Virus record (IMG/VR): IMGVR_UViG_3300045988_120991
Location: 101,979 to 165,978 of that record
Source: a virus
Direction: 5' to 3' (one strand)
DNA: 64,000 bases
Under the pieces are notes generated by a model, which saw only the letters and a list, made by a program, of their open reading frames with translations, searched no databases and was not told the DNA's origin. This document shows positions 11,143 to 43,734 of this stretch, in pieces. A program made the translations under genes and the position numbers. Each line of letters opens with the position of its first letter. Position 1 is the first letter of the stretch.

Positions 11143-12263
11143 GATGTTCTTAACCTTTCAATAAGTTTTTTTAGAATTTTAGCAATGTCAGAAATATCAT
11201 GCTGATTCAATGTTTCGTCCAATGTAATACGAATCGTGCTTAAAGCTTCTGCATCTGTAAGTCCAATAGCTTTTAACGTGCTACTTGGCACAGTCTCCCC
11301 ACTACTACAAGCAGAACCCGCAGAGATATAAATCCCACACATACTTGCTAGAGTCACAAGGTCACTAGCTTTTACTCCATCAATACGAACAGAAATATTA
11401 TTGCACAGACGATTAGTATCAAGTTCTGGACCATTTAGATGTACTCCAGGAATTTCAAGAATTTTCTTTGCAAGTTCATCCCTATTAAATCTAGTACAAA
11501 TGTTTGTATAGTCGTGTAACGTTCCTCTATTAATCTCTAGTGCTTTACCCATAGCTGCTATTGCAGGAGTATTTTCAGTTCCTCCTCGTTTGTGTAATTC
11601 TTGACTTCCATAAATAATCGGTGATAAATCAATTGTATCTTTGCAGTATAAAAATCCTGCACCTCTTCCACCTCTAAACTTCTGTGCTGAAATACTCATC
11701 ATATCTATTCTAAGCTTATCAACATCAATTCTTGATTCAGGGAAATATTGAACGGCATCCACATGTAATATACAATTATATTTATGCGTAATATATGAAA
11801 TAGATTTAATATCTTGGAGTGTTCCAATTTCAGAGTTTGCATACTGAATACTAACAATAGAATTATTATGTTCTTTTATTGTATCTTCTAAAATATTTGC
11901 ATCAATATTTCCAAATTCATCTACTGGAATATAATGTACATTAGTAAATTTATGATGATTTAAAATTTCACTAATAGATTTATGCTCTAATTGTGTCGTT
12001 ATAATAGTGTCAAAATTTGTTCCACAAAGTGCTAAAGTGTTTGCCTCTACTCCACCACTTGTGAAAATTATTTCTTTAGGTTCACAATTAATGTCTGCTG
12101 CAATTTGATCTCTTACATTTTCAATTATATTTTTAGCATCTTGCCCCATCTCATGAGTCGAAGATGGGTTGCCATAATGATTATACATTACATCGGCAAC
12201 CACATCTACAACTTCTTTGTATGGTTGAGTAGTAGATGCGCAATCTAAAAAGTATTTCTTCAT
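11139..12263 (-). CDS. cysteine desulfurase / class V aminotransferase (NifS/IscS-like)
   Basis: 374 aa. PLP-lysine context is SAQKFRGGRGAGFLY (compare SGHKxxGPKGxGxLY). C-terminal active-site loop is SAGSACSSG. Confidence 0.8.
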   Translation of the reverse strand: MKKYFLDCASTTQPYKEVVDVVADVMYNHYGNPSSTHEMGQDAKNIIENVRDQIAADINCEPKEIIFTSGGVEANTLALCGTNFDTIITTQLEHKSISEILNHHKFTNVHYIPVDEFGNIDANILEDTIKEHNNSIVSIQYANSEIGTLQDIKSISYITHKYNCILHVDAVQYFPESRIDVDKLRIDMMSISAQKFRGGRGAGFLYCKDTIDLSPIIYGSQELHKRGGTENTPAIAAMGKALEINRGTLHDYTNICTRFNRDELAKKILEIPGVHLNGPELDTNRLCNNISVRIDGVKASDLVTLASMCGIYISAGSACSSGETVPSSTLKAIGLTDAEALSTIRITLDETLNQHDISDIAKILKKLIERLRTS

Positions 12264-14077: not shown

Positions 14078-14153
14078 TGGAGCACGTGACGAGGCTTGAA
14101 CTCGCAACAGCCAGATTGGAAATCTGGAACTCTACCAATTGAGCTACACGTGC
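14078..14153 (-). tRNA. tRNA-Gly(UCC)
   Basis: Hand-folded cloverleaf: GCACGTG/CACGTGC acceptor, loop TTTCCAA, T-loop TTCAAGC, CCA encoded. Confidence 0.85.
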
Positions 14154-14158
14154 ATTTG

Positions 14159-14235
14159 TGGTACACCTTGAAGGACTCAAACCTTCGACCTTCTGATCCG
14201 TAGTCAGACGTTCTATTCAACTGAACTAAAGGTGC
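14159..14235 (-). tRNA. tRNA-Arg(ACG)
   Basis: Cloverleaf with TCTGA-CTACGGA-TCAGA anticodon arm, T-loop TTTGAGT, CCA encoded. Confidence 0.85.
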
Positions 14236-14240
14236 ATATA

Positions 14241-14315
14241 TGGTGCCCGTGGAGAGATTCGAACTCTCGACTCACGGCTTAAAAGGCCGTTACTCTACCA
14301 CTGAGTTACACGAGC
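14241..14315 (-). tRNA. tRNA-Lys(UUU)
   Basis: ACGGC-CTTTTAA-GCCGT anticodon arm, GAGAG-TTCGAAT-CTCTC T arm, CCA encoded. Confidence 0.9.
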
Positions 14316-14318
14316 ATA

Positions 14319-14395
14319 TGGTCGGAGTGCAGGGGCTTGAACCCTGGGCCTCTAGATCCCAAATCTAGCGCTCTACCAAACTGAGCTACACCCCG
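14319..14395 (-). tRNA. tRNA-Pro(UGG)
   Basis: CTAGA-TTTGGGA-TCTAG anticodon arm, CAGGG-TTCAAGC-CCCTG T arm, CCA encoded. Confidence 0.9.
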
Positions 14396-14400
14396 AAATG

Positions 14401-14477
14401 TGGCACCCCGTGTTGGACTCAAACCAACGACACATGGCTTAGAAGGCCATTGCTCTGTTCAACTGAGCTAACGGGGC
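14401..14477 (-). tRNA. tRNA-Arg(UCU)
   Basis: ATGGC-CTTCTAA-GCCAT anticodon arm, GTTGG-TTTGAGT-CCAAC T arm, CCA encoded. Confidence 0.9.
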
Positions 14478-14482
14478 ATATA

Positions 14483-14577
14483 TGGCGCCGAGGGTGGGAT
14501 TCGAACCCACGGGCCGAATATAAATCGGCACACAAGATTTCAAGTCTAGGCGCTTATGACCACTTGCGCACCTCGGC
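14483..14577 (-). tRNA. tRNA-Ser(UGA), class II
   Basis: Loop CTTGAAA, long variable arm GCCGA...TCGGC, GTGGG-TTCGAAT-CCCAC T arm, CCA encoded. One mismatch in the anticodon stem. Confidence 0.8.
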
Positions 14578-14690
14578 ATATTAACTTTGTAATCCCAAAC
14601 TCCTCCACACAGATTACTGGGCACCCCTTACCTCGAATGCTAGTTAGTAGCAACAAACGTTTGTGCCGTTTCCACAAATAAAGATACACC

Positions 14691-14885
14691 TCACTGCGTA
14701 TTAACCTCTGTATATTCAGTACTAGATAAGGTAATCATTCTTTCGCATCCGTCCTGTGGACAAAAAATATTTGCAACCCCAAGATTATTTATTCCGTCAG
14801 ACGGATTAAATGCAAATTCACAACCACAATAAGGGCAGATTGCCTTATAGGTCTTAACTTTGCCTCCCTTGATAATATACTTCAT
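14691..14885 (-). CDS. small zinc-ribbon protein embedded in the tRNA array
   Basis: 64 aa with CPYCGC...CPQDGC. GAGGTG RBS. Confidence 0.5.
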   Translation of the reverse strand: MKYIIKGGKVKTYKAICPYCGCEFAFNPSDGINNLGVANIFCPQDGCERMITLSSTEYTEVNTQ

Positions 14886-14896
14886 AATAACACCTC

Positions 14897-15016
14897 TTAA
14901 TTAAACTTGTTCAACTGCCGCTTAACTTTACGGATAAGGCCCTCGTTCATAGTCTCGCCTCGTGCCAAAAGCTTTGCTAGACGATTTTCATAATGTTCCT
15001 TAGTGCGAAAGTTCAT
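14897..15016 (-). CDS. small basic helical protein (39 aa) embedded in the tRNA array
   Basis: Hand-translated MNFRTKEHYENRLAKLLARGETMNEGLIRKVKRQLNKFN. Strong AGGAGG upstream. Confidence 0.35.
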   Translation of the reverse strand: MNFRTKEHYENRLAKLLARGETMNEGLIRKVKRQLNKFN

Positions 15017-15042
15017 AATATGTACCTCCTAAAATTTTTGTA

Positions 15043-15165
15043 TGGCAGGGGTAGTAGGGTTCGAACCTACGATGCGGGAGTCTGGTCAAGGTAGTTGGTA
15101 CTGCCCCAACTAAATTCACTTGAATACCTTGAAAGTCCCGTGCCTTACCACTTGGCTATACCCCT
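15043..15165 (-). tRNA. tRNA-Gln-like gene interrupted by a 49-nt insertion in the anticodon loop (UUG if CTTT+GAC are joined; UUC is the alternative)
   Basis: AGGGGTA/TACCCCT acceptor, GCC-AAGTGGTAA-GGC D arm, CGGGA...TCCCG anticodon stem enclosing 56 nt, GTAGG-TTCGAAC-CCTAC T arm, G73, CCA. Insertion at 15083-15131. Confidence 0.65.
15094..15110 (-). repeat. conserved insertion hairpin, copy 1 (GTTGG-GGCAGTA-CCAAC)
   Basis: The same 5-bp stem and 7-nt GGCAGNA loop recur in the insertions at 16662-16678 and 17532-17548. Confidence 0.7.
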
Positions 15166-15168
15166 ATA

Positions 15169-15243
15169 TGGTGGATCTGACGTGACTCGAACACGCAACT
15201 TCTTCCTTGCAAGGGAAGCTTTCTCCCATTGAAATACAGACCC
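15169..15243 (-). tRNA. tRNA-Cys(GCA)
   Basis: CTTCC-CTTGCAA-GGAAG anticodon arm, GCGTG-TTCGAGT-CACGT T arm, CCA encoded. Confidence 0.85.
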
Positions 15244-15405
15244 AGATTTTATGAGATAGCTACACTATGTATACCTAATGTAGCTATTAGGTTTTCTAAC
15301 TCCTCACCTCAAACCATTTTTATCTGTCTCTCCTCTTAGCCAATCAGATTTGAGTGACTTGAACGGACCGCCGTCCTCACATTGATAAAATAGTAAAATC
15401 AACAA
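15244..15405 (-). other. 162-nt non-coding spacer with strong hairpin inside the tRNA array
   Basis: Minus strand contains ATAGCTACA-N14-TGTAGCTAT (9-bp stem) and GGTTT...AAACC. I found no tRNA fold and no ORF. Confidence 0.3.
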
Positions 15406-15496
15406 TGGCGCGATAGGAAGGCTTCGAACCTTCGCACGGCTTTCACCGCCTAGCAGATTAGCAATCTACCCTCTTCAACCACTTGAGTACTACCGC
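15406..15496 (-). tRNA. tRNA-Ser(GCU), class II
   Basis: GTAGA-TTGCTAA-TCTGC anticodon arm, long variable arm GGCGGTGAAAGCCGT, CCA encoded. Confidence 0.85.
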
Positions 15497-15499
15497 ATA

Positions 15500-15703
15500 T
15501 TAATCTAATGTTCTTCCAGTTGCTAATTCAAAAATTAAATTATCAACACAGGGAATGTGCATTGCCTCTATCTCATATTGAGTACGATGTTCAATGTCAT
15601 TAATATAGATAGGACAATCTTTACATTCTACATTTTCACAAAAACGAACAGCTTTTTCTACTATTTTAGAATTCGCAAATTTTATATATTCTTCCCAACG
15701 CAT
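15500..15703 (-). CDS. small Cys-containing protein embedded in the tRNA array
   Basis: Start moved to MRWEEYIKF, with GGAGG 5 nt upstream. 67 aa. Confidence 0.5.
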   Translation of the reverse strand: MRWEEYIKFANSKIVEKAVRFCENVECKDCPIYINDIEHRTQYEIEAMHIPCVDNLIFELATGRTLD

Positions 15704-15723
15704 AAAATCCTCCATAAAACGAG

Positions 15724-15752
15724 CAGTTTATACAGTGATACTCAGCACTATC
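15724..15752 (-). repeat. 29-nt direct repeat, copy A (contains hairpin ATAGTG-N8-CACTGT)
   Basis: 25 of 29 nt identical to 16117-16145. Both copies sit just downstream (minus sense) of a tRNA 3' end. Confidence 0.6.
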
Positions 15753-15775
15753 CCACGGTCCCAATCGAGCTTTTC

Positions 15776-15850
15776 TGGAGCTGATGGAGAATTTCGAAAT
15801 CTCGACCTAGTGATTACAAATCACTCGCTCTGCCTCTGAGCTACACCAGC
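15776..15850 (-). tRNA. tRNA-Thr(UGU)
   Basis: AGTGA-TTTGTAA-TCACT anticodon arm, CCA encoded. One T-stem mismatch. Confidence 0.8.
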
Positions 15851-15956
15851 AGATCTCCTCGTCTTTCCGAGGTGTCAATCGCACTTTTACATTAATAATC
15901 TTAAATTATTCTTTAATAGGAAGATGACGCCAATCTTGTGTGATTACCTTTTATGT

Positions 15957-16025
15957 GAGGTCTTAATTGGAATCGAACCAACACCTGCCCCACCACGGGG
16001 CCGATCTACCATTGAACTATAAGAC
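15957..16025 (-). tRNA. atypical tRNA-like gene with a shortened (15-nt) anticodon arm; identity undetermined
   Basis: GGTCTTA/TAAGACC acceptor and GTTGG-TTCGATT-CCAAT T arm. The anticodon region is GCCCC-GTGGT-GGGGC (5-nt loop, or 4-bp stem with loop CGTGGTG). No CCA encoded. Confidence 0.4.
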
Positions 16026-16027
16026 CT

Positions 16028-16105
16028 ATGGTGACGCTACCGGGGATCGAACCCGGACACTCCACGGTGAAAGCGTGGTAACTCTACCAATTCGTCCATA
16101 GCGCC
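16028..16105 (-). tRNA. tRNA-Glu(UUC)
   Basis: CCACG-CTTTCAC-CGTGG anticodon arm, CCGGG-TTCGATC-CCCGG T arm, CCA encoded. Confidence 0.8.
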
Positions 16106-16116
16106 ATATCTTTGGA

Positions 16117-16145
16117 CAGTTTATACAGTGATGTCCAGCACTGTC
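16117..16145 (-). repeat. 29-nt direct repeat, copy B (hairpin ACAGTG-N8-CACTGT)
   Basis: See 15724-15752. Confidence 0.6.
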
Positions 16146-16156
16146 ACTTTTGGGAG

Positions 16157-16241
16157 TGGTAGCGGTGGTGGGCTACGATCCCACACGTCATAAGACATTG
16201 GTTTTTGAGACCAACCTGTCTGCCTGTTCCAGCACACCGCC
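16157..16241 (-). tRNA. tRNA-Leu(CAA), class II, atypical T-loop
   Basis: TTGGT-CTCAAAA-ACCAA anticodon arm, long variable arm. The T arm is GTGGG-ATCGTAG-CCCAC, with A where T54 normally sits. CCA encoded. Confidence 0.75.
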
Positions 16242-16448
16242 ATATTAAGCACAACCTACATAGAGCTAGCCTCGCTCACACTTGCTTTCCCGAACACTTC
16301 CCACCCTCGGTTATGCTTTGTTATTGTTTATCCTATTTTCACAATAACATATGCCTCGTTCTCTTCTCGTTACTATGGGTTAGTAACTTAGTAGCTTTTC
16401 TCTTGTGGATAGCACTTATCAATACACCGAGAACCCCAATAGGCGGCA
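16242..16448 (-). ncRNA. 207-nt structured non-coding spacer (candidate ncRNA)
   Basis: No credible ORF. Minus strand contains CTCGGT...ACCGAG enclosing about 110 nt, GTTACTA-ACCCA-TAGTAAC and GTTATTGT-N13-ACAATAAC hairpins. Confidence 0.3.
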
Positions 16449-16524
16449 TGGTTGCGAAGTTCTGGAATCGAACCAGATTCTGATAGCTTATGAGACTACC
16501 TGAGATTCCTACCTCCCACTCGCA
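16449..16524 (-). tRNA. tRNA with CAU anticodon (Met, or Ile2 if lysidine-modified)
   Basis: GTAGT-CTCATAA-GCTAT anticodon arm, TCTGG-TTCGATT-CCAGA T arm, CCA encoded. The acceptor has one mismatch. Confidence 0.7.
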
Positions 16525-16608
16525 TTATCTAGCAGACTACAATGCCGTCTGCTAGGGCATTAGAAAGAGGTGATGCCTATAACCAAGGCTCTGAACTTGT
16601 CATTCAGA

Positions 16609-16758
16609 TGGTCCCCCACCGGTGGATTGAACACCGAACCTCCCGATTATTTGTCACTACAGTAAGTCCTGCCCTTACATTACTGATTATCCTTCAGTGG
16701 TGTTGCTTTTACACTATGTAGTGAAGTCGGGTGCTCTAGCCAGTTGAGCTAGCAGGGG
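16609..16758 (-). tRNA. class I tRNA interrupted by an approx. 73-nt insertion in the anticodon loop (Ile-UAU-like if CTT+ATAA are joined; Arg-UCU or UCA readings also possible)
   Basis: CCCCTGC/GTGGGGG acceptor, GCTC-AACTGGCTA-GAGC D arm, CCCGA...TCGGG stem enclosing 80 nt, AGGTT variable loop, CGGTG-TTCAATC-CACCG T arm, A73, CCA. Confidence 0.6.
16662..16678 (-). repeat. conserved insertion hairpin, copy 2 (GTAAG-GGCAGGA-CTTAC)
   Basis: Shares stem ends and the GGCAGNA loop with copies 1 and 3. Confidence 0.7.
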
Positions 16759-17056
16759 ACATATAATCCGGCTTTTACGGTACGCCCAATAAGATGGACA
16801 CGCTTGAATTTCACAATTGCCATCAAAGTGCCTGATGACTAACACCCAATATGAAGCCTTGATATCATTGCTTCTAAGTCGTTATTGGGAACAACAGATG
16901 GTAATGATAGCAAGCGAAGCCGCGCATGACTCCATTTCACAGTGCTTCATCAACTACTTTTGGCATTTCTAATTATTATCGGTGCAGGTAGCTAATCCTG
17001 TAACGGCTTATCCTCATTGATTATCTCCTATGAAATTTGCACTACTTACTATCATT
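16759..17056 (-). ncRNA. 298-nt non-coding spacer (candidate structured RNA)
   Basis: No ORF above about 22 codons and no tRNA fold found by eye. Several 5-6-bp hairpins (e.g. CATCA-N7-TGATG). Confidence 0.25.
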
Positions 17057-17141
17057 TGGTGGGCCAGGGTGGTGCCGACCCACCTACTCCCGAAGGAAAC
17101 GGATTTACAGTCCGCCGCAGTTGCCGATTTGCTACTGACCC
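17057..17141 (-). tRNA. tRNA-Tyr(GUA), class II, atypical T-loop
   Basis: GCGGA-CTGTAAA-TCCGT anticodon arm, variable arm TTCCTTCGGGAGTA. The T arm is GGTGG-GTCGGCA-CCACC (G54/G58). CCA encoded. Confidence 0.75.
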
Positions 17142-17468: not shown

Positions 17469-17601
17469 TGGTGCGGGTAGCGAGACTTGAACTCGCACGG
17501 ATATTTCACCGAGGGATTTTTGGTGAGTATTGTAGGTGCTGCCCCTACCAAAGCACTGGCTATACCCAAGTCCCTTGTGTCTGCCATTCCACCATACCCG
17601 C
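17469..17601 (-). tRNA. tRNA-Leu (class II) interrupted by a 47-nt insertion in the anticodon loop (UAA if CTT+AAAA are joined)
   Basis: GCGGGTA/TACCCGC acceptor, Leu-type D arm GTG-GAATGGCAGA-CAC, AGGGA...TCCCT stem enclosing 54 nt, long variable arm, GCGAG-TTCAAGT-CTCGC T arm, A73, CCA. Confidence 0.65.
17532..17548 (-). repeat. conserved insertion hairpin, copy 3 (GTAGG-GGCAGCA-CCTAC)
   Basis: Shares stem ends and the GGCAGNA loop with copies 1 and 2. Confidence 0.7.
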
Positions 17602-17649
17602 ATATCACAGGGCAGCTTTAAGGTGATGCCCAGCACCATACTTAACTCC

Positions 17650-19203
17650 TTAAGAGTTCTTCAATGCGGCTTCCACCGCATCATATCTATCACTCATAAG
17701 CGTCTCAACGAGGCACTCATAAGGATTGGTCTTACCACTCATAACCATCTTGCAGACATTAGTGGAGAATCCACTAACAAGAGCAACACCAAGGTCATTC
17801 TCCTTTATAGGAATAGTTCCAGTGCGAGAATTTACATTCCAGAAGACTAGTCTAGGCATCTGATACCCAGCATCCTCGAAACGCTTCTTGATTACCTTAA
17901 AAAGTTTTGCATTAGGTCTATTAAGACCATATCTAGCGGAACCGTCACAAGTTGCACAAGAGTCAAACTCCATATCTGAAATAATCAGTACGTTCTTAGG
18001 CATATCCTCTTGCTTCATATGACCATTCACCGCAGTAGTAAGAATCAAATCAAACACCTTTTCAATGTTTGTATTTGAACACTCGTCATGACCATATGCA
18101 ACACGTAACTTATCTCTCAGAGAATCGCACTGACTAAAATCAACCAACTGAGGTCTGCTAGAGAAAGTAATGTATTTATCCTTAAAGTCTCCAGAAGAAT
18201 GTTCTGCAAAGTAAATCGCAAGTGCATTTGCAACTTCAAGTGCAGTAACACGGCTACTTCCACCAACGTTGCAACACATAGAACCAGAGCCATCTGCAAC
18301 TACAATGGTGTTTCCACATTCATTTACTGTGTTAGGCAAAGCTTTCCAAAGAGATTCAAGAGTTGCATCGTATTTGCCGATACCGCCGTACCATCCAGTT
18401 GCACTAGAATACTTATGCACAATGTCGTGAGGGAACAAAGTTCCAGCATTAATCTTAGTTTCGCCCTTTTCAAGCTTACTCAGATACTCTCTGCGACGCT
18501 CCTCATCATTACGAAGGAAAGCTCCGTTATAAATGAGATTTGCACGAGAAGGAACTGTTTCGTACTTAATGTCTCCCCATTTCTTTGCAGACATCTTGCC
18601 CTCTACAATATCAATGTAAGAACGCAGAGAAGAAAGTGTCTTACGATACTCACGCTCAGTCATACCAAGATTCTTGCAAATGTATCTTGCATCCATCTTA
18701 GTTTTTGCAGAAGAAGCATTCACAGAAGGAAGCCACTTGGCAAGAAGAGATACGGGCTTATTATCAGCCATATTTGCAATATCATCAGTGAGCTGCTTTT
18801 TGATGATGTCAAAAATAATACCATCTACGTCTGTACCAAACAGACACCACAGGTCATCATAACGACCATACTCACTCACCAGAGGAGCAAGATGCTTAAC
18901 AATATCAACGTCATCCTTTGCCATATTCTTAATAATCGCTCTGAACAAACGTCTTTCACCAAGACCACCACGAACATCTCTGGCGAAGAACAGCCAACGT
19001 AGAGCCATCATTTTATCTTCAAAATAAGCCTTAGTAAACTTATTATAGATATTCTCCTCACTCATACCACGCATAGAAGAAACTGCAAAGTTTAGGTCAA
19101 CCAGTTCCTTACCAGAGGTACGATACCCAAGAGCGCCATTCTCAGTTACTGAATAGTTGAAATCCTCGTTCAGAGTATTCTTTACTGCATTCATAAAAGA
19201 CAT
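17650..19203 (-). CDS. Ro60/TROVE-like vWA protein (DUF2828-type architecture)
   Basis: Start moved to MSFMNAVKN, with GGAGG upstream. N-terminal VTENGALGYRTSGKELVDLNF. C-terminal vWA domain with MIDAS VADGSGSM, and a tail FWNVNSRTGTIPI...VSGFS that parallels the Ro60 C-terminus. Confidence 0.65.
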   Translation of the reverse strand: MSFMNAVKNTLNEDFNYSVTENGALGYRTSGKELVDLNFAVSSMRGMSEENIYNKFTKAYFEDKMMALRWLFFARDVRGGLGERRLFRAIIKNMAKDDVDIVKHLAPLVSEYGRYDDLWCLFGTDVDGIIFDIIKKQLTDDIANMADNKPVSLLAKWLPSVNASSAKTKMDARYICKNLGMTEREYRKTLSSLRSYIDIVEGKMSAKKWGDIKYETVPSRANLIYNGAFLRNDEERRREYLSKLEKGETKINAGTLFPHDIVHKYSSATGWYGGIGKYDATLESLWKALPNTVNECGNTIVVADGSGSMCCNVGGSSRVTALEVANALAIYFAEHSSGDFKDKYITFSSRPQLVDFSQCDSLRDKLRVAYGHDECSNTNIEKVFDLILTTAVNGHMKQEDMPKNVLIISDMEFDSCATCDGSARYGLNRPNAKLFKVIKKRFEDAGYQMPRLVFWNVNSRTGTIPIKENDLGVALVSGFSTNVCKMVMSGKTNPYECLVETLMSDRYDAVEAALKNS

Positions 19204-19239
19204 TTTCTTTCCTCCATTTTTTTGATTTATTTCTAAATC

Positions 19240-19442
19240 CCAAGACACATTATTATGTACAATCTCCACATTAAAAATTTGCTGTTAGTGTCTTTGGAGT
19301 TTATTCAACGAGACGCCAAAATAAAACCATTAGTAAAAATATCATTTTCATCTTTTTAAATTGCTGTAAGCGTCTCTATGTAAGGCAAGGCACCATCAAT
19401 ATAAATCCATATCATATTATGTAAAGTTGCTGTTAGTGCCTT
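19240..19442 (-). repeat. three tandem imperfect hairpin units, each carrying a CTAACAGCAA-N-TTT box, in the leader of the Ro-like gene
   Basis: Minus-strand stems are AAGGCAC/GTGCCTT, GAGACGC/GCGTCTC and CCAAAGACAC/GTGTCTTGG. Each is followed on its 5' arm by (C)T(A/T)ACAGCAA-N-TTT. A fourth box lies inside the tRNA-Asn insertion. Confidence 0.6.
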
Positions 19443-19448
19443 TTTAAA

Positions 19449-19567
19449 GTCTCCTGACAGGACTTGAACCTGCGACCTCTGGTTTAACAGACCAATTAGA
19501 AACTTGCTGTTTAAGGCTTTTACAAGTCTCGTTATTAAGCGCTCTATCCGACTGAGCTACAGGAGAC
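19449..19567 (-). tRNA. tRNA-Asn(GUU)-like gene with a 44-nt insertion at the top of the anticodon stem; encoded G-1 opposite C73; no CCA
   Basis: Removing 19495-19538 gives TCTCCTG-TA-GCTC-AGTCGGATA-GAGC-G-CTGGT-CTGTTAA-ACCAG-AGGTC-GCAGG-TTCAAGT-CCTGT-CAGGAGA-C, a canonical cloverleaf. Confidence 0.6.
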
Positions 19568-19604
19568 ATATTTATGAGCAGTTTAACGAGGTGCTCGGCT
19601 CACT

Positions 19605-19649
19605 TTAATTTTGTACTGTGATTATACCACAGATTACTTATTTTGTCAA
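19605..19649 (-). promoter_or_regulatory. sigma-70-type promoter plus conserved leader, driving the tRNA-Asn-like / Ro-like unit
   Basis: Minus strand reads TTGACA-N17-TATAAT-c-ACAGTACAAAATTAA, with a TGTGG extended -10 context. Confidence 0.7.
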
Positions 19650-19763
19650 GTACTTTTTTACTTTTTATTCCAGAGAAGCCATCCACAAGCAACTCCGAAC
19701 AAGAAACATACAATTTCCTTCATCTTTACTTCTTCCTTATTATACCATATTCGGCATCATTTG

Positions 19764-20114
19764 TCAAGCATTTTCTCGATTTTTTCTTGTGCAATTTACT
19801 CGATTGCAGAACTCAAACATTGCTGCATTAAGATCCTCTGCAAACTCATCACACTTGGTATCCAGTGCTGCATAGTACCGATCCAGAAGCTTCGCCTTTG
19901 CCATCTTCATACCAATAGCAGGATCATACTCATCATCAGGATGACACACGACAACCGCACGATAAGAACTACTCATCAGGTACTTACTAGGATCGAAGCA
20001 CAGAGATTTGGTCTGTCCCATAATCTTTGCAATCTTATGGATAGCATCATACTTCGTGTTCTCAAGAACCGCAATGGTCTTGTTCTGCTCCGGCACATGT
20101 ACAAACTTAATCAT
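19764..20114 (-). CDS. hypothetical protein
   Basis: ORF track, 116 aa, behind two tandem consensus promoters. Confidence 0.6.
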   Translation of the reverse strand: MIKFVHVPEQNKTIAVLENTKYDAIHKIAKIMGQTKSLCFDPSKYLMSSSYRAVVVCHPDDEYDPAIGMKMAKAKLLDRYYAALDTKCDEFAEDLNAAMFEFCNRVNCTRKNRENA

Positions 20115-20134
20115 TTTTGTTATCCTTTCTTGTT

Positions 20135-20179
20135 TTAATTTTGTATTGTGATTATAACATGCTTTCTTGAACTTGTCAA
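20135..20179 (-). promoter_or_regulatory. sigma-70-type promoter plus conserved leader
   Basis: Minus strand reads TTGACA-N17-TATAAT-c-ACAATACAAAATTAA. Confidence 0.65.
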
Positions 20180-20228
20180 GCCCTTTTTAACCATCCCGGT
20201 AAAGGTTCTTGCCTCATTCATTGTTTGT

Positions 20229-20257
20229 ATTATAGCGCATTAATTTTGTTTTGTCAA
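20229..20257 (-). promoter_or_regulatory. second, upstream sigma-70-type promoter
   Basis: Minus strand reads TTGACA-N17-TATAAT. The -35 overlaps the stop codon of the preceding gene. Confidence 0.55.
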
Positions 20258-21402
20258 GTATCTTTTTTAAATAATTTTCTAGTTTCTTCATAAGACAGGT
20301 ACTTAATATTAATGCCCGTCAAATTCAGCAGTTTTTCATTTTTAAACTCGTTAACATGAGTTACTGCAAGAGATACCTCATAGGCAATATCCCCAATGTC
20401 TTCCTTAATTCTTTGCATAAGCTCACCAACATCAAGATGCCCATACCGAATGGACCCCTGATACTGGTTTGTAATATTGGTCTTGTCATCAATGTTAATG
20501 TTAATCTCCGACTTATCACATTCACATTCAAAGTCACCAGCACCATGCTTCGTCATATATGTTCTAGTAACATAGCACACTTCAACGTTTGCATTAGGTA
20601 AATACTTTTCAATGATTATATGAGGATTTGCAATGCCAGTATTGCTAGGAGTCGTATTATCATAATACTGAACATGACGCTGATCCAACAGCAATCCTTG
20701 CCCATTTTCAAATACGACATTATCAAACTTTTGCAAAATCCTACTATAATCAAATACTACATGAGAATGCATAAACTGCGCATCGTCAATAAAGTTATAA
20801 ATCAAATTGTCGGATGCCAAAATATCTTCCCATTCCTGCAAAACTTCAGGACTAGCCTTTAGCAGCCTCTTAGACGTATATTCATCCCTGACACGCTTAA
20901 GAAATGCGACCTGCTCGTCCTTAGTCATATTATAGAACTGCTGGAAAGACGGGCTTGTAGTATTCCTATATCTAAGAACAGTTTCCCAAATACCCATACC
21001 ACAAGAGCCATACCGATTTTTGCCACGACTATCCTCAAGGATTTGATTTGTAATCATATCATATGGAGTAGACCATCTGCAATTCCAATGACTATAAACA
21101 CGAGGTGCATAGCCTAATGCCTTCAATTCCTCGTACTCTTTTCTAAAAGTCATAGGGTTTAGAATATACTCTTCCCCAAAATAAGTATCTGCTCCCGCAA
21201 AGGTTCCTGAACCAAAATGGTGGAACACATGTCTAATGCCATCTGGAGTAACTACAGTATGTCCTCTTTGTGCGCCGCCATTGCATAGAGCAACGATACA
21301 AGATTCATTCCGCTTACTTGCTTCGGCACAAAAGTAATCGGTCATCAGACCTTTTCCCTCGTCGCCAAAGTTGCTACCAATTACTACCTTAACATTAGAC
21401 AT
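20254..21402 (-). CDS. adenylosuccinate synthetase family protein (short form; PurA/PurZ-like)
   Basis: Start moved to MSNVKVVIGSNFGDEGKGLMTDYF (AdSS P-loop GDEGKG). Also NGGAQRGHTV (compare GGHNAGHT), FENGQGLLLD and TRTYMTKHGAGDF (compare TRVGxGPF). Confidence 0.7.
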   Translation of the reverse strand: MSNVKVVIGSNFGDEGKGLMTDYFCAEASKRNESCIVALCNGGAQRGHTVVTPDGIRHVFHHFGSGTFAGADTYFGEEYILNPMTFRKEYEELKALGYAPRVYSHWNCRWSTPYDMITNQILEDSRGKNRYGSCGMGIWETVLRYRNTTSPSFQQFYNMTKDEQVAFLKRVRDEYTSKRLLKASPEVLQEWEDILASDNLIYNFIDDAQFMHSHVVFDYSRILQKFDNVVFENGQGLLLDQRHVQYYDNTTPSNTGIANPHIIIEKYLPNANVEVCYVTRTYMTKHGAGDFECECDKSEININIDDKTNITNQYQGSIRYGHLDVGELMQRIKEDIGDIAYEVSLAVTHVNEFKNEKLLNLTGINIKYLSYEETRKLFKKDT

Positions 21403-21416
21403 GTGTTTATCCTTTC

Positions 21417-22271
21417 TTACCAAGAAATACCTTCACTAGATGTTGCTACATTGCCACCAGAAAACGCATTGGTGACAATATCAATGATGTCATCTGCAAT
21501 CTTATCAATAGACGTATCCTTCAGATGGTTCTCGTCCAGAAGCAGCCCAAAAGTCCTATGAACGGCCTCATGATAACGACCATAACCATGCTTAACATAC
21601 AGATGATAAATGTCAAACTTCTCAGACGCATTAGCGTAAAGCTGTGCCGTTTCAACATCGCTCTGTAGATTATCACCAGTTACTGCGGATAGAGCCTTCT
21701 TCGGCAGATATGGATTCATAGGCTCGTCACCCATAGTGATAATGACACCCTTCTGTCCACGATTCCAGCAATCTAGCTTCGTGTGATTAAGACCGAAATA
21801 CCATGCGGCGCTATAAGACTCATAATCATTGCCTCCACCACCGCCCTCAAAATAAATCTTATCAAGCTGTTCTGCGATGCGGATATCAGACTCAAACTGT
21901 GATGCCTGAATAGGAGCGCAATCGTAAGCAAGATCCCCAATGCCCATAACCATGAACTCTACGTCTGCGATATTCTCGTATAGCTTAGTCATTACTACAT
22001 TGATCTGCTTTGCAACTTCCATAGCCGCCTTGCCCATGCTACCAGTTACATCGAGTGCCAGAATAACAGGCTTGGTATTAGGATGTTCCACAGAGTCAAC
22101 ACACTCACGCATTACATTCTTAGGATTAAGGTCTGCTACTAGCATTTTAGATTTAAAATTGTCCTGCACATTAGAGGACATTCCAGTGACTACACCATCC
22201 ATTGATACGCTGTACCCCTTGGTAGTCGCATAAGTGGTAAAAGCATTTTTAGTCCAACTGCCACCGCCCAT
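21417..22271 (-). CDS. von Willebrand factor A (vWA) domain protein
   Basis: 284 aa. MIDAS-like ILALDVTGSMG, followed by MVMGIGD and IITMGDE motifs. Confidence 0.7.
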   Translation of the reverse strand: MGGGSWTKNAFTTYATTKGYSVSMDGVVTGMSSNVQDNFKSKMLVADLNPKNVMRECVDSVEHPNTKPVILALDVTGSMGKAAMEVAKQINVVMTKLYENIADVEFMVMGIGDLAYDCAPIQASQFESDIRIAEQLDKIYFEGGGGGNDYESYSAAWYFGLNHTKLDCWNRGQKGVIITMGDEPMNPYLPKKALSAVTGDNLQSDVETAQLYANASEKFDIYHLYVKHGYGRYHEAVHRTFGLLLDENHLKDTSIDKIADDIIDIVTNAFSGGNVATSSEGISW

Positions 22272-28239: not shown

Positions 28240-29529
28240 TTATTCTGTTTTCCACCTAAATACAAACCCTTTTGTTTTTTCTTGTACACCATGACAGCAT
28301 TCTAAAATTCTTGTTTTACTTGCATTCGTATTTTTTACGGCATCCGCAACATTTTTATATTCTGCTATAAAATTTCCATCTAAATCATACTGTAATACTG
28401 GAAGTCTAACTGGGCTTTTATGATAATTTGTAGATTTAATTTTATCTAAATCATAATCTCCGTCGGCATATTTCCATACAAATCCACCAGCCATAGAGCC
28501 ATCTTTAGCTAAACATCTCGATATGGTAGAATTGTTAATTCCAGTTATCCTTGATGCCTCAACAATACTTTCATAAGTTGCAATAATATTTCCATTTGTG
28601 TCTATTTGCACAACTTCTTTATATACTGGATTTTTATATACATATGTTTTTGACGGGTCATATTCTTCTTTGTATATCCAGATATATTCGCCAGCGTGGT
28701 TATAATTGCCTTTGCAGCACATAGTTATACTTGAATCATAAATATTTGTGTTTATACTTGCGTCTTTTATAGTACTATATTCTGCTATAAAATTACCCAA
28801 TTTATCCAATTGTACAACCGGCCTTAATGTATTATTATCATATGTTATATCATTATGAGGATCATAATCTTTTTTATAAACCCAAAGAAACTTTCCGCCA
28901 GATTTAGAATGTAATTTACCAAGGCAGCACTTGTTAATAGTTGTTTCATCAACACCAGTTATTTCACTGGCTTCTCTACCACTTTTAAATTCTGCTATAT
29001 ATTTTCCATCTAAGCCTAATTGAATAACTGGTACACTTTGTATTTTGCTTATAACATTTTTTGTTTCATCCGAATGATGTTTACCATAAAATGGGTTACA
29101 TTCTCCAGAAAATTTCTTGCTCCACTTTTCTTTTAACTCGTCTGTCCATCTATTTCTTTGAGCTTCACTCATTTTGTTTTTAGTATCATCAGATACTATT
29201 AATCCACTTACTCCGCCTCCACCATAACAAAGATTGTACCAATTTTTATCTTCTACAACATTAAGAAAAACACTTAAATCATATTCAGATTTATTTAATT
29301 CTTCTAATGAATCACAAAAACATATAATATTTCTAGAAAAATTTTCTTTGCCATATTTTCTTACTGCACTTTTAAATGCACTACCGCTTCCTAAATAATT
29401 CTTCCATTTATAATTATCATCAAAAGATTTTTGTCCAAGGTATCTTTTGCCGTTAACCATATTTGTAGTAATATATATAAATCCATATGGTTCTTTAATT
29501 ATTTTTTTTACTTCTTCCACAACTCTCAA
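28240..29529 (-). CDS. GIY-YIG homing endonuclease with four tandem NUMOD/IENR-like DNA-binding repeats
   Basis: N-terminal GFIYITTNMVNGKRYLGQ (GIY...YxG). Repeated units of the form xVxQxDxxGNxIAxYxSxxEAxxxTG....I..C......GGFxWxY. Non-ATG (TTG/GTG) start. Confidence 0.8.
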   Translation of the reverse strand: MRVVEEVKKIIKEPYGFIYITTNMVNGKRYLGQKSFDDNYKWKNYLGSGSAFKSAVRKYGKENFSRNIICFCDSLEELNKSEYDLSVFLNVVEDKNWYNLCYGGGGVSGLIVSDDTKNKMSEAQRNRWTDELKEKWSKKFSGECNPFYGKHHSDETKNVISKIQSVPVIQLGLDGKYIAEFKSGREASEITGVDETTINKCCLGKLHSKSGGKFLWVYKKDYDPHNDITYDNNTLRPVVQLDKLGNFIAEYSTIKDASINTNIYDSSITMCCKGNYNHAGEYIWIYKEEYDPSKTYVYKNPVYKEVVQIDTNGNIIATYESIVEASRITGINNSTISRCLAKDGSMAGGFVWKYADGDYDLDKIKSTNYHKSPVRLPVLQYDLDGNFIAEYKNVADAVKNTNASKTRILECCHGVQEKTKGFVFRWKTE

Positions 29530-34743: not shown

Positions 34744-35231
34744 AGTCTCCTCCCAATTTCATTCGTAATTCTTTCGGCCTCTCTAATTTCTTTCTCTGCT
34801 TGCTTACGGATACTGTCGATGTCCTTCTGAACAAGTTCAAGCATCCCTCTCATATCTTCGTTGTGCTTATACTTCTTCTTTACCTTTTGTTTATGTTTAT
34901 CCCAATAATAAAATCTGATATATGAGAATAATTTAAATTTGATTTTATATTTGTTTCTAAACTGTACACCATATTGACAATACATATTATATTCATTATA
35001 TTCTTCTTTAATATTTAAAGAACATGGTTCTCCATTATTGTATTCTATTTCATATCTGTCTGGATTTAAATTATAAAAATCTATAAAATCTTTGAAGGAT
35101 AAAAATATTTCACTTTTGCCATCGCCATAACCACTCTGATTGAAATAGTTTTGCTTTATAACAAGCATCAATACAAAAATAGCAATACCAATAATTGTGA
35201 AAAATATTAAACAAAAAATAGGAAATGTCAT
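34740..35231 (-). CDS. membrane-anchored hypothetical protein
   Basis: 163 aa with an N-terminal TM segment. Confidence 0.55.
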   Translation of the reverse strand: MTFPIFCLIFFTIIGIAIFVLMLVIKQNYFNQSGYGDGKSEIFLSFKDFIDFYNLNPDRYEIEYNNGEPCSLNIKEEYNEYNMYCQYGVQFRNKYKIKFKLFSYIRFYYWDKHKQKVKKKYKHNEDMRGMLELVQKDIDSIRKQAEKEIREAERITNEIGRRL

Positions 35232-43689: not shown

Positions 43690-43702
43690 TCCTTATAACT
43701 GT

Positions 43703-43731
43703 ATTATACAGTACAATATTAATTTTGTCAA
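43703..43731 (-). promoter_or_regulatory. sigma-70-type promoter
   Basis: Minus strand reads TTGACA-N17-TATAAT, followed by AAGGAG. Confidence 0.6.
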
Positions 43732-43734
43732 GTT

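What the first reader, a model, noticed from the sequence alone, without database searches (positions are those of the whole stretch)
19240..19521. Four copies of a CTAACAGCAA-N-TTT box, three at the 5' arm of tandem hairpins, in the leader of the Ro-like gene
Minus-strand boxes are AAAGCCTTAAACAGCAAGTTT (inside the tRNA-Asn insertion), AAAGGCACTAACAGCAACTTT, GAGACGCTTACAGCAATTT and AAAGACACTAACAGCAAATTT, spaced 67-81 nt apart. The last three immediately follow the 5' arm of 7-9-bp stems that close 40-55-nt loops. This is a regular, non-coding, repeat-structured RNA region between a tRNA-like gene and a Ro/TROVE-like ORF. That arrangement matches where bacterial Ro orthologues keep their Y RNAs. 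The repeats are too degenerate, and lack the spacer logic, to be CRISPR.
Basis: partly seen in the sequence, partly recalled or inferred. Interest (0 to 1): 0.7.

Follow-up and report, generated by a model that had tools for sequence, protein, structure and literature searches.

The report
Y-RNA-like array upstream of Ro-like gene
The leader of a phage gene for a Ro60-like protein (Pfam DUF2828) holds one tRNA-like RNA and three small stem-plus-ACAGCAA-box RNAs; these belong to a widespread, undescribed RNA family that sits next to DUF2828 genes much as Y RNAs sit next to Ro60 genes.

Summary
Four ACAGCAA boxes lie at 19275-19510 on the minus strand. Three sit 2 nt after the 5' strand of a 7-bp stem whose 3' strand is followed by G (H1-H3). 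The fourth follows a small hairpin inserted into a tRNA-Asn-like gene (B1).

The elements are conserved in 16 close relatives and in phages whose protein is only 66-73% identical. The stems covary: 140 of 140 cells are paired. The interiors are unrelated. A covariance model trained only on other phages finds exactly H1-H3 in the window (E about 1e-9).

The downstream protein (Pfam DUF2828/DUF7788) is predicted to fold like Ro60. Its only strong PDB matches are a phage Ro60 and frog Ro60. Of 80 diverse DUF2828 loci, 71 carry such elements on the gene strand, at more than 100 times the background density.

Longer family members enclose anticodon-arm mimics or whole tRNA-like domains. Circularly permuted ones match Rfam YrlA below threshold.

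Best reading: these are Y-RNA-like partner RNAs of a divergent Ro60 family. Binding is inferred, not shown.

Rivals are a cis-regulatory leader and a processing or splicing signal for interrupted or permuted tRNAs.

I rate it a new variant of a known kind.

The parts
19621..19649 (-). Sigma-70-type promoter (TTGACA, 17 nt, TG-TATAAT) that probably drives the whole array together with the DUF2828 gene
   Evidence: It matches 12 of 12 consensus positions and has an extended -10. No minus-strand terminator-like site lies between it and 17650. It is conserved in L001, L002, L004, L012 and L019.
19449..19566 (-). B1: a tRNA-Asn-derived tRNA-like RNA with acceptor, D, anticodon and T arms, a 44-nt insertion in the 5' strand of the anticodon stem, and no encoded CCA
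   Evidence: It scores 42.3 bits against Rfam tRNA, above the gathering score of 29, with a large insertion. It lacks CCA, whereas 16 of the 17 other tRNA genes in the window encode it. In orthologues the triplet and discriminator vary.
19494..19537 (-). Insertion in B1 between positions 28 and 29 of the tRNA. It holds the hairpin GAGACTT-GTAA-AAGCCTT, then AA, then ACAGCAA (hairpin plus box = 19504-19530).
   Evidence: The same hairpin + NN + ACAGCAA is found in 99 distinct insertions in the loci scanned. The hairpin sequences covary and the loops start with G.
19386..19442 (-). H1: 7-bp terminal helix AAGGCAC/GTGCCTT, then G; TA-ACAGCAA follows the 5' strand; the interior is A/U-rich
   Evidence: Model R1 scores it 44.1 bits, E 6.9e-9. 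The fold has z = -3.8. It is conserved in L001-L022.
19309..19376 (-). H2: helix GAGACGC/GCGTCTC, then G; TT-ACAGCAA follows the 5' strand
   Evidence: Model R1 scores it 45.7 bits, E 2.7e-9. Relatives have GAGAGAC/GTCTCTC (L017) and GAGATGC/GCATCTC (L038). It is fused to H3 at the box in L013 and L015.
19241..19294 (-). H3: helix AAGACAC/GTGTCTT, then G; TA-ACAGCAA follows the 5' strand. It ends about 40 nt before the start codon.
   Evidence: Model R1 scores it 46.1 bits, E 2.1e-9. An element occupies this position (about -90 to -110 from the ATG) in many divergent loci. Covariation was measured on this position-defined set.
19224..19239 (-). Small conserved hairpin GATTT-AGAAAT-AAATC between H3 and the ribosome-binding site
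   Evidence: It folds with z = -2.2. L017 and L021 have GATTTT...AAAATC, which keeps the pairing through a matched insertion.
17650..19203 (-). Gene for a 517-aa DUF2828/DUF7788 protein with a predicted Ro60-like fold (helical-repeat ring plus von Willebrand A domain); the proposed RNA partner
   Evidence: Pfam gives DUF7788 at 8.9e-46 and DUF2828 at 2.3e-33. It matches PHROG 850, 'RNA-binding protein', at 1e-139. A family profile against PDB ranks Ro60 first, E 0.011. Foldseek gives 9KOP at 2e-8 and 1YVP at 5e-6.

Best explanation
The region encodes four small non-coding RNAs: the tRNA-like B1 and the stem-box RNAs H1, H2 and H3. They are transcribed with the DUF2828 gene from the promoter at 19649-19621 and then cut apart.

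All four share one module. It is a 7-bp helix (consensus AAGRCRC/GYGYCTT) whose 3' strand is followed by an unpaired G and whose 5' strand is followed by two variable bases and the invariant ACAGCAA, then a U-rich tract.

I propose that this module is the binding site for the Ro60-like DUF2828 protein. It would play the role that the conserved helix and CGAA bulge play in Y RNAs. The variable part presents tRNA-like shapes. In B1 this is a whole tRNA-like body. In relatives it is an anticodon-arm mimic or a whole tRNA-like domain, in normal or circularly permuted order.

The resulting particle would act in tRNA or RNA surveillance, repair or protection during infection, as Ro60-Y RNA particles do.

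Shown: the RNA family, its structure, and its tight linkage to DUF2828 genes. Inferred: co-transcription and processing, protein binding, and the physiological role.
For: 1. The family is real and structured.
- The array is conserved in 16 loci with 89-98% protein identity and in loci at 66-73% identity, where stems change by compensation and interiors are unrelated.
- RNAalifold was run on 20 sequences chosen only by position (the last box before the ATG). It returns just the 7-bp helix. All 140 cells are paired. There are 27 double changes against 6.6 in shuffles (0 of 500 shuffles reach this), and slid controls give 28-56% paired.
- A perfect partner followed by G is found for 186 of 455 same-strand boxes, against 16-27 of 455 at control offsets and 4 of 68 on the other strand.

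2. The family is linked to DUF2828.
- 71 of 80 loci with proteins 40-73% identical carry at least one element on the gene strand; only 4 elements lie on the opposite strand.
- Density is 2.5 per kb in the 500 nt before the gene, 0.9 per kb in the 500 nt after it, and 0.01-0.02 per kb beyond 3 kb.
- In bacterial genomes and MAGs, 17 of 20 structured hits have a DUF2828 gene within the 8-kb locus.
- No other window gene recurs in more than 9 of the 80 loci.

3. The protein is Ro60-like.

4. The architecture resembles Y RNAs.
- Twelve of 443 elements enclose a circularly permuted tRNA-like domain (T arm, acceptor hairpin, D arm). Six such elements match Rfam YrlA over most or all of the model, at 29-44 bits and E 2e-6 to 5e-2.
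- Short elements are enriched about 5-fold for 5-bp/7-nt hairpins with anticodon-loop features. CUUUUAA is the commonest loop.

5. There is precedent. Ro60 genes of bacteria and phages have adjacent YrlA RNAs (PMC4201824). Thermus phage phiLo Ro60 (9KOP, the best structural match here) binds two stem-bulge RNAs encoded upstream of its gene (PMC12135203).

6. The context fits. The window has 17 tRNA genes and genes for an RNA-ligase-like protein, a kinase+HD protein and a Thg1-like protein.
Against: - There is no experimental evidence of discrete RNAs or of binding.
- No Y_RNA or YrlA match occurs in the window region, even at E<=10.
- The Ro-binding CGAA/GNCGAAN0-1G motif is absent from all four elements (sequence).
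- In the YrlA alignment of relatives only the tRNA-like part aligns. The terminal stem does not.
- Pfam TROVE does not hit the protein. Ro60 similarity rests on a model of moderate confidence (pLDDT 72.9, pTM 0.71) and a weak profile hit (E 0.011).
- H3's fixed position just ahead of the ribosome-binding site would also suit a cis-acting regulator.
- B1 keeps an intact Asn-type anticodon arm in many lineages, so it could be a tRNA with an intron.
- Nine of the 80 DUF2828 loci showed no element under the strict definition.
Confidence: 0.6

Rival explanations
1. The elements are a cis-regulatory leader. They act only in cis on the mRNA, for example as operators through which the DUF2828 protein or another factor controls translation, stability or processing of its own message. 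They would not be stable trans-acting RNAs.
For: An element ends about 40 nt upstream of the start codon in many divergent loci, at positions -91 to -110. A conserved mini-hairpin lies between H3 and the ribosome-binding site. No terminator separates the array from the gene.
Against: Elements come in arrays of 3-9 and also lie just downstream of the gene: 36 in the first 500 nt after the stop codon. Many carry whole tRNA-like domains with CCA or capped acceptor stems, which a translational operator does not need. This rival is compatible with the best explanation, because the protein could both regulate itself and form particles.
Confidence: 0.15
2. The helix plus box is a processing or splicing signal, a phage counterpart of the archaeal bulge-helix-bulge motif. 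An endonuclease would cut around it and the phage RNA ligase would rejoin the ends. This would remove it from interrupted tRNAs such as B1 and un-permute circularly permuted tRNA genes. Free-standing copies would be processing sites or excised by-products.
For: Removing the 44-nt insertion from B1 restores a perfect anticodon arm, CTGGT-CTGTTAA-ACCAG. In permuted members, the 3' part (position 30 to CCA), a 3-5-nt linker and the 5' part (positions 1-29) would rejoin into canonical tRNA-Asp(GUC) and tRNA-Gly(GCC). The GUU loop recurs in 20 of 50 tRNA-like members. The window encodes an RNA-ligase-like protein and a kinase+HD protein. The same phages hold a second class of precisely bounded tRNA insertions.
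Against: Most elements (291 of 443) have no recognisable tRNA-like part in their interior, yet they are conserved with covariation at fixed positions. Some permuted members have acceptor stems closed by a tetraloop and no CCA (L051, L120, L130), so they cannot mature into tRNAs by simple end processing. In orthologues of B1 the triplet changes (GTT, GCT) with the body kept, in the wider set of box-bearing tRNA-likes the loop and discriminator vary, and CCA is missing. The elements cluster at DUF2828 genes, not in the tRNA arrays. RNA ligase is within 6 kb in only 9 of 80 loci. No candidate endonuclease was identified.
Confidence: 0.12
3. The elements are DNA-level repeats: miniature inverted-repeat elements, recombination sites, or binding sites for a DNA-binding protein.
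For: Each element has 7-bp terminal inverted repeats around a variable interior, and copy number varies. H2 and H3 are fused in L013 and L015 by recombination at the box.
Against: There is strict strand bias relative to the gene: 186 structured elements on the gene strand against 4 on the other. Many pairs are G-U (G-T) pairs, which are complementary only in RNA. The box is asymmetric and present at one arm only. There are no target-site duplications. The elements lie inside a transcribed leader.
Confidence: 0.03

Closest known systems
YrlA-type bacterial Y RNAs (Rfam RF02553) with Ro60/Rsr (Chen et al. 2014, PMC4201824)
   Same: They are small RNAs encoded next to a Ro60-type gene, often in several copies, in bacteria and phages. 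They are modular: a terminal stem formed by the 5' and 3' ends, plus a tRNA-like domain in permuted order (T arm, acceptor hairpin, D arm). Long relatives of the window elements match the YrlA model over its length at 29-44 bits. M. smegmatis YrlA has a 7-bp acceptor stem, is cut by RNase P and receives CCA. This resembles the CCA-bearing permuted members here.
   Different: The terminal module is different. It is a 7-bp AAGRCRC/GYGYCTT helix plus ACAGCAA, not the GNCGAAN0-1G motif. The protein is DUF2828/DUF7788, not Pfam TROVE. The window's H1-H3 have no tRNA-like domain. B1 has the tRNA-like body in normal order, with the module inserted as a capped hairpin. No element reaches the Rfam gathering score (69 bits).
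Ro60 of Thermus phage phiLo with Yrl1 and Yrl2 (PDB 9KOP, 9L5Y; PMC12135203)
   Same: A phage-encoded Ro60-type protein has several stem-bulge RNAs encoded directly upstream of its gene. 9KOP is the best structural match of the window protein (E 2e-8).
   Different: Sequence identity is about 16%. The Yrl RNAs carry the CGAA motif and the window elements do not. Binding and a complex with host PNPase were shown for phiLo. Nothing has been shown here.
Metazoan Y RNAs with Ro60 (PDB 1YVP)
   Same: A conserved helix formed by the RNA ends, with an adjacent unpaired conserved stretch, serves as the protein-binding site, and the distal part is variable. The predicted protein fold is similar (E 5e-6).
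   Different: There is no sequence similarity in the RNA. There is no polymerase III context and no 3' oligo-U/La site.
Intron-containing and circularly permuted tRNA genes of archaea and the red alga Cyanidioschyzon merolae (bulge-helix-bulge splicing)
   Same: One short motif occurs as an insertion inside tRNA bodies at non-canonical sites (28/29, 29/30), at the termini of permuted tRNA-like genes, and flanking whole tRNA-like units.
   Different: There is no bulge-helix-bulge geometry and no splicing endonuclease gene was found. The hosts are bacteria (Clostridia). Most copies have no exons. Several permuted copies cannot yield a tRNA.
Ordinary tRNA genes
   Same: B1 has acceptor, D, anticodon and T arms and passes the Rfam tRNA threshold (42.3 bits).
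   Different: It has a 44-nt insertion in the anticodon stem, no encoded CCA, and a variable triplet and discriminator among orthologues.

Membership tests
Y RNA / YrlA (Ro60-associated RNAs) | Encoded adjacent to a gene for a Ro60/TROVE protein | tested here: inconclusive
   The elements are adjacent to and co-oriented with the gene. The protein is Ro60-like by predicted fold and by a weak profile match. However, it belongs to Pfam DUF2828/DUF7788 and gets no TROVE hit.
Y RNA / YrlA (Ro60-associated RNAs) | Terminal stem carrying the conserved Ro-binding sequence (CGAA / GNCGAAN0-1G on the 5' strand) | tested here: not met
   A terminal stem is present, but no CGAA motif occurs in B1 or H1-H3 (sequence). 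The conserved sequence is AAGRCRC-NN-ACAGCAA. The YrlA stem does not align in relatives.
Y RNA / YrlA (Ro60-associated RNAs) | tRNA-like domain (T arm, acceptor-like hairpin, D arm) | tested here: inconclusive
   It is absent from H1-H3. It is present in B1, but in normal tRNA order. It is present in permuted order in 12 of 443 family members from other phages.
Y RNA / YrlA (Ro60-associated RNAs) | Score at or above the Rfam gathering threshold (RF02553, 69 bits) | tested here: not met
   There is no hit in window 19000-19800 at E<=10. Relatives reach 28.6-43.7 bits.
Y RNA / YrlA (Ro60-associated RNAs) | Physically bound by the Ro60-type protein | not testable with these tools
   This needs immunoprecipitation or gel-shift. 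Only genomic linkage is available (71 of 80 loci).
Ro60 / TROVE protein family | Helical-repeat ring plus C-terminal von Willebrand A domain with a DxSxS metal site | tested here: met
   The predicted structure aligns over 531-581 columns with 9KOP and 1YVP; these are the only PDB hits with E<=1e-3. D304, S306 and S308 are invariant in 64 homologues. The model's confidence is moderate.
tRNA (for B1) | Cloverleaf that passes the Rfam tRNA threshold | tested here: met
   It scores 42.3 bits against a gathering score of 29, with a 57-nt unaligned insertion.
tRNA (for B1) | Continuous anticodon stem, a stable anticodon and discriminator among orthologues, and a 3' CCA as in the phage's other tRNA genes | tested here: not met
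   There is an insertion at 28/29. CCA is absent here but present in 16 of the 17 other tRNA genes. L019, an orthologue of B1, has GCT instead of GTT on the same body, and other box-bearing tRNA-likes carry other or no clear triplets and discriminators of C, G or A.
CRISPR array | Near-identical direct repeats of 24-48 nt separated by unique spacers of similar length | tested here: not met
   Only a core of about 16-20 nt is shared. The units are 54-118 nt long and each carries its own inverted-repeat stem.
Bulge-helix-bulge tRNA introns / permuted tRNAs | Two 3-nt bulges separated by a 4-bp helix at the exon-intron junctions, plus a splicing endonuclease | tested here: not met
   The junctions show no such geometry. 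No endonuclease of that family appeared among the 41 window ORFs scanned with Pfam.

The most novel reading that the evidence does not exclude
The helix plus ACAGCAA module is the handle of a phage cut-and-rejoin system for tRNA. Bound by the Ro60-like DUF2828 protein, it would mark sites where RNAs are cleaved and then religated by phage RNA ligase. This would let these phages carry interrupted and circularly permuted tRNA genes, so far unknown outside archaea and a few algae. Alternatively, it would display anticodon-arm decoys (often Lys-UUU-like) against host anticodon nucleases.
Probability: 0.15. Interest if true: 0.9.

Novelty: new variant of a known kind. Interest (0 to 1): 0.65.

Why it matters
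DUF2828/DUF7788 is a large uncharacterised family. It has 6,880 clusters at 50% identity with E<=1e-3 and occurs in phages of gut and rumen Clostridia, in Acinetobacter phage ME3 and in giant viruses.

Linking it to a defined, easily recognised RNA partner gives this family a testable function. It also extends the Ro60-Y RNA pairing to a second protein-RNA pair with a different recognition module.

The family shows how one protein-binding RNA module is combined with tRNA-derived parts in four topologies:
- inserted into a tRNA body;
- flanking a whole tRNA-like unit;
- flanking a permuted one;
- carrying only an anticodon-arm mimic.

This makes it directly testable what the tRNA-like half of bacterial Y RNAs is for, which is still an open question. 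Candidate answers are recruiting tRNA enzymes, acting as decoys for anticodon nucleases, and serving as a repair platform.

The motif is absent from Rfam 15, and I found no paper on it in the library I could search.

Tried and rejected
1. A hairpin GAGACUUGU/GCAAGUUUC inside the B1 insertion, predicted by RNAfold. Rejected: L011 and L014 break it, and relatives support the alternative hairpin GAGACTT-GTAA-AAGCCTT that precedes the box.

2. A second helix in fixed register next to the box, pairing the U-rich tract after the box with the A-rich tract before the 3' strand. Observed pairing equals that of shuffled partners: 4.03 against 3.90 of 6. Not supported.

3. Known RNA families. Rfam at gathering threshold and at E<=10 gives only tRNA for B1 and noise for H1-H3.

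4. Close relatives among deposited phage genomes. None was found by blastn.

5. A sequence match of the protein to solved structures. phmmer gave nothing useful. Only the family profile and the fold search reached Ro60.

6. A conserved protein-coding neighbour other than DUF2828. None recurs; the maximum is 9 of 80 loci, for the RNA ligase and for the class-V aminotransferase.

7. A first test of whether the other class of tRNA insertions ends in CCA, without requiring tRNA context, was swamped by chance hits. It became clear only after requiring a downstream T-loop.

8. Retron-like RNA, self-cleaving ribozyme and CRISPR were considered and dropped. No gene with a reverse-transcriptase or Cas domain appeared among the 41 window ORFs scanned with Pfam, the interiors are not conserved, and the repeats are too short. 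The reverse-transcriptase and ribozyme points rest on inspection only.

9. Literature searches for DUF2828 RNAs, phage permuted tRNAs and short phage tRNA introns found nothing relevant.
Full report
**Context.** The window is part of a large phage genome read on the minus strand. It encodes:
- a PurZ-like adenylosuccinate synthetase (20254-21423);
- a DnaE-type polymerase, a RecJ-like protein and a serine hydroxymethyltransferase;
- homing endonucleases;
- an RNA-ligase-like protein (6551-8029), a P-loop kinase+HD protein (5427-6302) and a Thg1-like protein (963-1796).

ARAGORN finds 14 tRNA genes at 14078-17141, and three more there carry insertions. No deposited phage genome is similar at the DNA level.

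**Checking the observation.**
- The four quoted boxes exist on the minus strand. ACAGCAA starts at 19510, 19433, 19367 and 19285.
- The last three lie 2 nt after a 7-nt strand (AAGGCAC, GAGACGC, AAGACAC). The exact complement lies 39-53 nt downstream and is followed by G. This gives H1 19386-19442, H2 19309-19376 and H3 19241-19294.
- Minimum-energy folds keep the terminal helix in each.
- The first box lies inside a 44-nt insertion (19494-19537) in a tRNA-like gene (19449-19566; Rfam tRNA 42.3 bits). There it follows a capped hairpin, GAGACTT-GTAA-AAGCCTT.
- ACAGCAANTTT occurs three times in 64 kb, all here, against 0.46 expected.
- A perfect sigma-70 promoter with an extended -10 lies at 19649-19621. 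No terminator-like site separates it from the gene that starts at 19203.

**Conservation.** Sixteen IMG/VR contigs encode a protein 89-98% identical to the 17650-19203 product and keep the whole array.
- Several add another tRNA-like gene with a 'hairpin + ACAGCAA' insertion upstream.
- In L013 and L015, H2 and H3 are fused at the box, and the hybrid stem still pairs.

Loci whose protein is only 66-73% identical (L017, L019, L021) have the same layout. A promoter is visible in L019. There are one to three tRNA-like genes with the inserted hairpin and box, then three or four free-standing stem-box elements, the last ending about 40 nt before the start codon. Stems differ by compensatory changes, for example AAGACAC/GTGTCTT against AAGACGC/GCGTCTT and GAGACGC/GCGTCTC against GAGAGAC/GTCTCTC. 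Interiors are unrelated.

**A widespread family.** Of 125 matches, 94 have a perfect 7-bp partner followed by G within 200 nt.

Across all loci I collected 443 distinct elements. The consensus is (A)AAG-R-C-R-C, two variable bases, ACAGCAA, a U-rich tract, a variable interior, then G-Y-G-Y-C-T-T-G. Pairs 4 and 6 switch between A-U and G-C.

The structure was tested without circularity in three ways:
- In 80 loci chosen through the protein, ACAGCAA is 455 against 68 in favour of the gene strand. The 7-mer at the true offset has a perfect partner followed by G in 186 of 455 cases. Control offsets give 16-27 of 455, and the opposite strand gives 4 of 68.
- RNAalifold on 20 sequences defined only as 'last box before the ATG' predicts just this helix. 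All 140 cells pair. There are 27 double changes against 6.6 in shuffles (0 of 500), and slid controls give 28-56%.
- A covariance model built from 48 elements of other phages (the window and its close relatives were excluded) finds H3, H2 and H1 at 46.1, 45.7 and 44.1 bits. Nothing else in 64 kb scores above 11 bits.

**The protein.**
- Pfam assigns DUF7788 (8.9e-46) and DUF2828 (2.3e-33), with a marginal VWA hit. PHROG 850 is labelled 'RNA-binding protein'.
- A profile of 64 homologues ranks Ro60 chains first in the PDB (E 0.011 and 0.023), then two bacterial TROVE chains. These matches cover the metal-site region. D304, S306 and S308 are invariant.
- An AlphaFold2 model (pLDDT 72.9, pTM 0.71) has only two PDB matches with E<=1e-3. 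One is 9KOP (2e-8, 531 columns). The other is Xenopus Ro60 1YVP (5e-6).
- 9KOP is the Ro60 of Thermus phage phiLo (PMC12135203).
- Among viral models the family includes DUF2828/DUF7788 proteins of phages and giant viruses, and a phage TROVE protein.
- The 'Ro-like' label is therefore justified at the level of fold, with moderate confidence. It is not justified as Pfam TROVE membership.

**Linkage of RNA and protein.**
- Of 80 IMG/VR loci encoding proteins 40-73% identical to the query, 71 carry at least one element on the gene strand. Only four elements lie on the other strand.
- Density is 2.5 per kb in the 500 nt upstream and 1.05 per kb from -1500 to -500. It is 0.9 per kb in the 500 nt after the stop codon and 0.01-0.02 per kb beyond 3 kb.
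- In the bacterial genome collection most pattern hits are chance. Of the 20 with the stem, 17 have a DUF2828 gene within the 8-kb locus. These records are mainly Clostridia MAGs: Oscillospiraceae, Ruminococcus, Acutalibacteraceae and Christensenellaceae.
- No other window gene recurs near DUF2828 in more than 9 of the 80 loci. RNA ligase is in 9, Thg1 in 6 and the kinase in 4.

**What the variable parts are.**
- Of 443 elements, 75 contain a T-loop motif.
- Thirteen enclose a tRNA-like unit in normal order.
- Twelve enclose one in circularly permuted order: T arm, 3' acceptor strand, then either CCA plus a 3-5-nt linker or a tetraloop, then the 5' acceptor strand and the D arm.
- Six of the permuted members match Rfam YrlA, most over the full model, at 29-44 bits (E 2e-6 to 5e-2 in a 65-kb search; 2e-8 locally). 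The tRNA-like part aligns well, but the YrlA terminal stem does not, and the helix and box lie outside the match.
- Short elements are enriched for 5-bp/7-nt hairpins (184 of 347 against 90 in shuffles). They are enriched about 5-fold for loops with U33 and a purine at 37 (109 against 23). CUUUUAA is the commonest loop.
- The window's H1-H3 belong to the short class and have no clear tRNA-like part.

**B1.**
- It has the tRNA-like body in normal order, and the module is inserted between positions 28 and 29. C27 and T28 come from the 5' part. GGT comes from the 3' part. Together they complete the stem CTGGT/ACCAG around the loop CTGTTAA.
- It lacks an encoded CCA, unlike 16 of the 17 other tRNA genes.
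- L019, an orthologue with the same body, carries GCT instead of GTT. In the wider set of box-bearing tRNA-likes the triplet and discriminator vary.
- So it looks like a tRNA mimic. However, the GUU loop recurs in 20 of 50 such RNAs, which keeps an intron reading alive.

**Interpretation.** The shared module always has the same parts, whether the helix is open (free-standing elements) or capped by a loop that starts with G (insertions). These are circular permutations of one structure.
- This is what a protein-binding module fused to variable tRNA-derived parts would look like. It matches the published architecture of bacterial Y RNAs.
- YrlA has a Ro60-binding stem plus a permuted tRNA-like domain and lies next to Ro60 genes in more than 250 bacteria and phages. 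M. smegmatis YrlA is cut by RNase P and receives CCA (PMC4201824).
- It also matches phage phiLo, whose Ro60 binds two stem-bulge RNAs encoded upstream of its gene (PMC12135203).
- I therefore read B1 and H1-H3 as Y-RNA-like partners of a divergent Ro60 family (confidence about 0.6).
- The recognition sequence differs (ACAGCAA, not CGAA) and no Rfam threshold is met. So this is a new variant, not a member of the YrlA family.
- Co-transcription, processing, binding and the role in tRNA surveillance, repair or protection are all inferences.

**Rivals.**
- A purely cis-acting leader is suggested by H3's fixed position. It is weakened by the arrays, by copies downstream of the gene and by the tRNA-like cargo.
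- A processing or splicing signal, analogous to the archaeal bulge-helix-bulge motif, would explain B1 and the CCA-bearing permuted members. These would rejoin into tRNA-Asp and tRNA-Gly. It does not explain the majority of elements, which have no exons. It also does not explain members with capped acceptor stems, or the clustering at DUF2828 genes instead of in tRNA arrays.
- DNA-level repeats are excluded by the strand bias and the G-U pairs.

**Literature.** Searches of the held library found no description of RNAs associated with DUF2828, of permuted tRNA-like genes in phages, or of this motif. The library is incomplete, so prior description elsewhere cannot be excluded.

Noticed in passing
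window 17469-17601, 16609-16758 and 15043-15164 (minus strand); insertions 17521-17567 and 15083-15131; also L005:6164-6240, L044 (minus strand of the locus, reverse-complement positions 11206-11282), L098 and L142: Three tRNA genes (Leu-UAA, Ile-UAU, Gln-UUG) carry 47-73-nt insertions in the anticodon loop, and each insertion is itself a mini-tRNA. It starts with the 5' strand of a 7-bp acceptor-like stem, contains a 5-bp/7-nt-loop hairpin, and ends in discriminator + CCA (the window's Ile copy ends in A-CA instead). Removing it leaves a canonical 7-nt loop. The stems covary between phages. In outer-tRNA context, 20 such insertions end in CCA, against at most 3 for any other trinucleotide. 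Some inner units are whole tRNAs. This suggests release by tRNA end-processing enzymes followed by exon ligation. I found no paper on it.
   Followed up: partly
window 20254-21423 (minus strand): This adenylosuccinate-synthetase homologue matches the PHROG family annotated as the 2-aminoadenine (PurZ) enzyme at 2.4e-62. The phage DNA may therefore contain diaminopurine in place of adenine.
   Followed up: no
window 6551-8029, 5427-6302, 963-1796 and 8942-9718 (minus strand): This is a set of RNA-repair-type genes: an RNA-ligase-like protein with a PHA02142 OB fold (weak Pfam hits), a P-loop kinase fused to an HD phosphohydrolase, a Thg1-like 3'-5' nucleotidyltransferase, and another HD protein.
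   Followed up: partly
window 17610-17636, 16114-16141 and 15721-15748 (minus strand); also after stem-box elements in L019 and L142: The motif GTGCTGGRYATCAC(Y)(N)TAWAARCTGYYC is repeated three times, each copy 10-50 nt upstream of a tRNA gene or small ORF. By chance 0 copies are expected. Its function is unknown; it may be a processing site or a phage promoter.
   Followed up: partly
window 19621-20257 (minus strand): Four perfect 12-of-12 sigma-70 promoters (three with an extended -10 TG) lie within 640 nt, in front of very short units. One unit is a 21-codon hydrophobic ORF at 19658-19723.
   Followed up: no
L013:3896-3975 and L015:3896-3975: H2 and H3 are replaced by one hybrid element, with the 5' strand and box of H2 and the interior and 3' strand of H3. 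This indicates recombination at the box. The hybrid stem still pairs through a G-U pair.
   Followed up: yes
L117:7982-8394, L117:2050-2137, L051:3902-4222 and L032:2610-2661: Related phage contigs hold a ROOL RNA (263 bits), an OLE-like fragment (53 bits), a tmRNA (77 bits) and a sub-threshold twister-P1 match, all within the same tRNA-rich regions.
   Followed up: no
L019:156-1433 and L019:4563-5390: In one relative the DUF2828 gene is flanked by a TnpB/Cas12f-like ORF and a LAGLIDADG-like ORF. Two further stem-box elements lie downstream of the latter, and one of them encloses a whole tRNA-like unit.
   Followed up: no
window 15957-16026 (minus strand): This 70-nt 'tRNA-Pro(UGG)' duplicates the Pro-UGG gene at 14319-14395. 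It is the only other tRNA gene in the window without an encoded CCA.
   Followed up: no
window 28240-29529, 35228-35845 and 42784-44712 (minus strand): These are a GIY-YIG/NUMOD homing endonuclease, an HNH endonuclease and two tyrosine-recombinase genes. They show that mobile elements are active in this genome.
   Followed up: no
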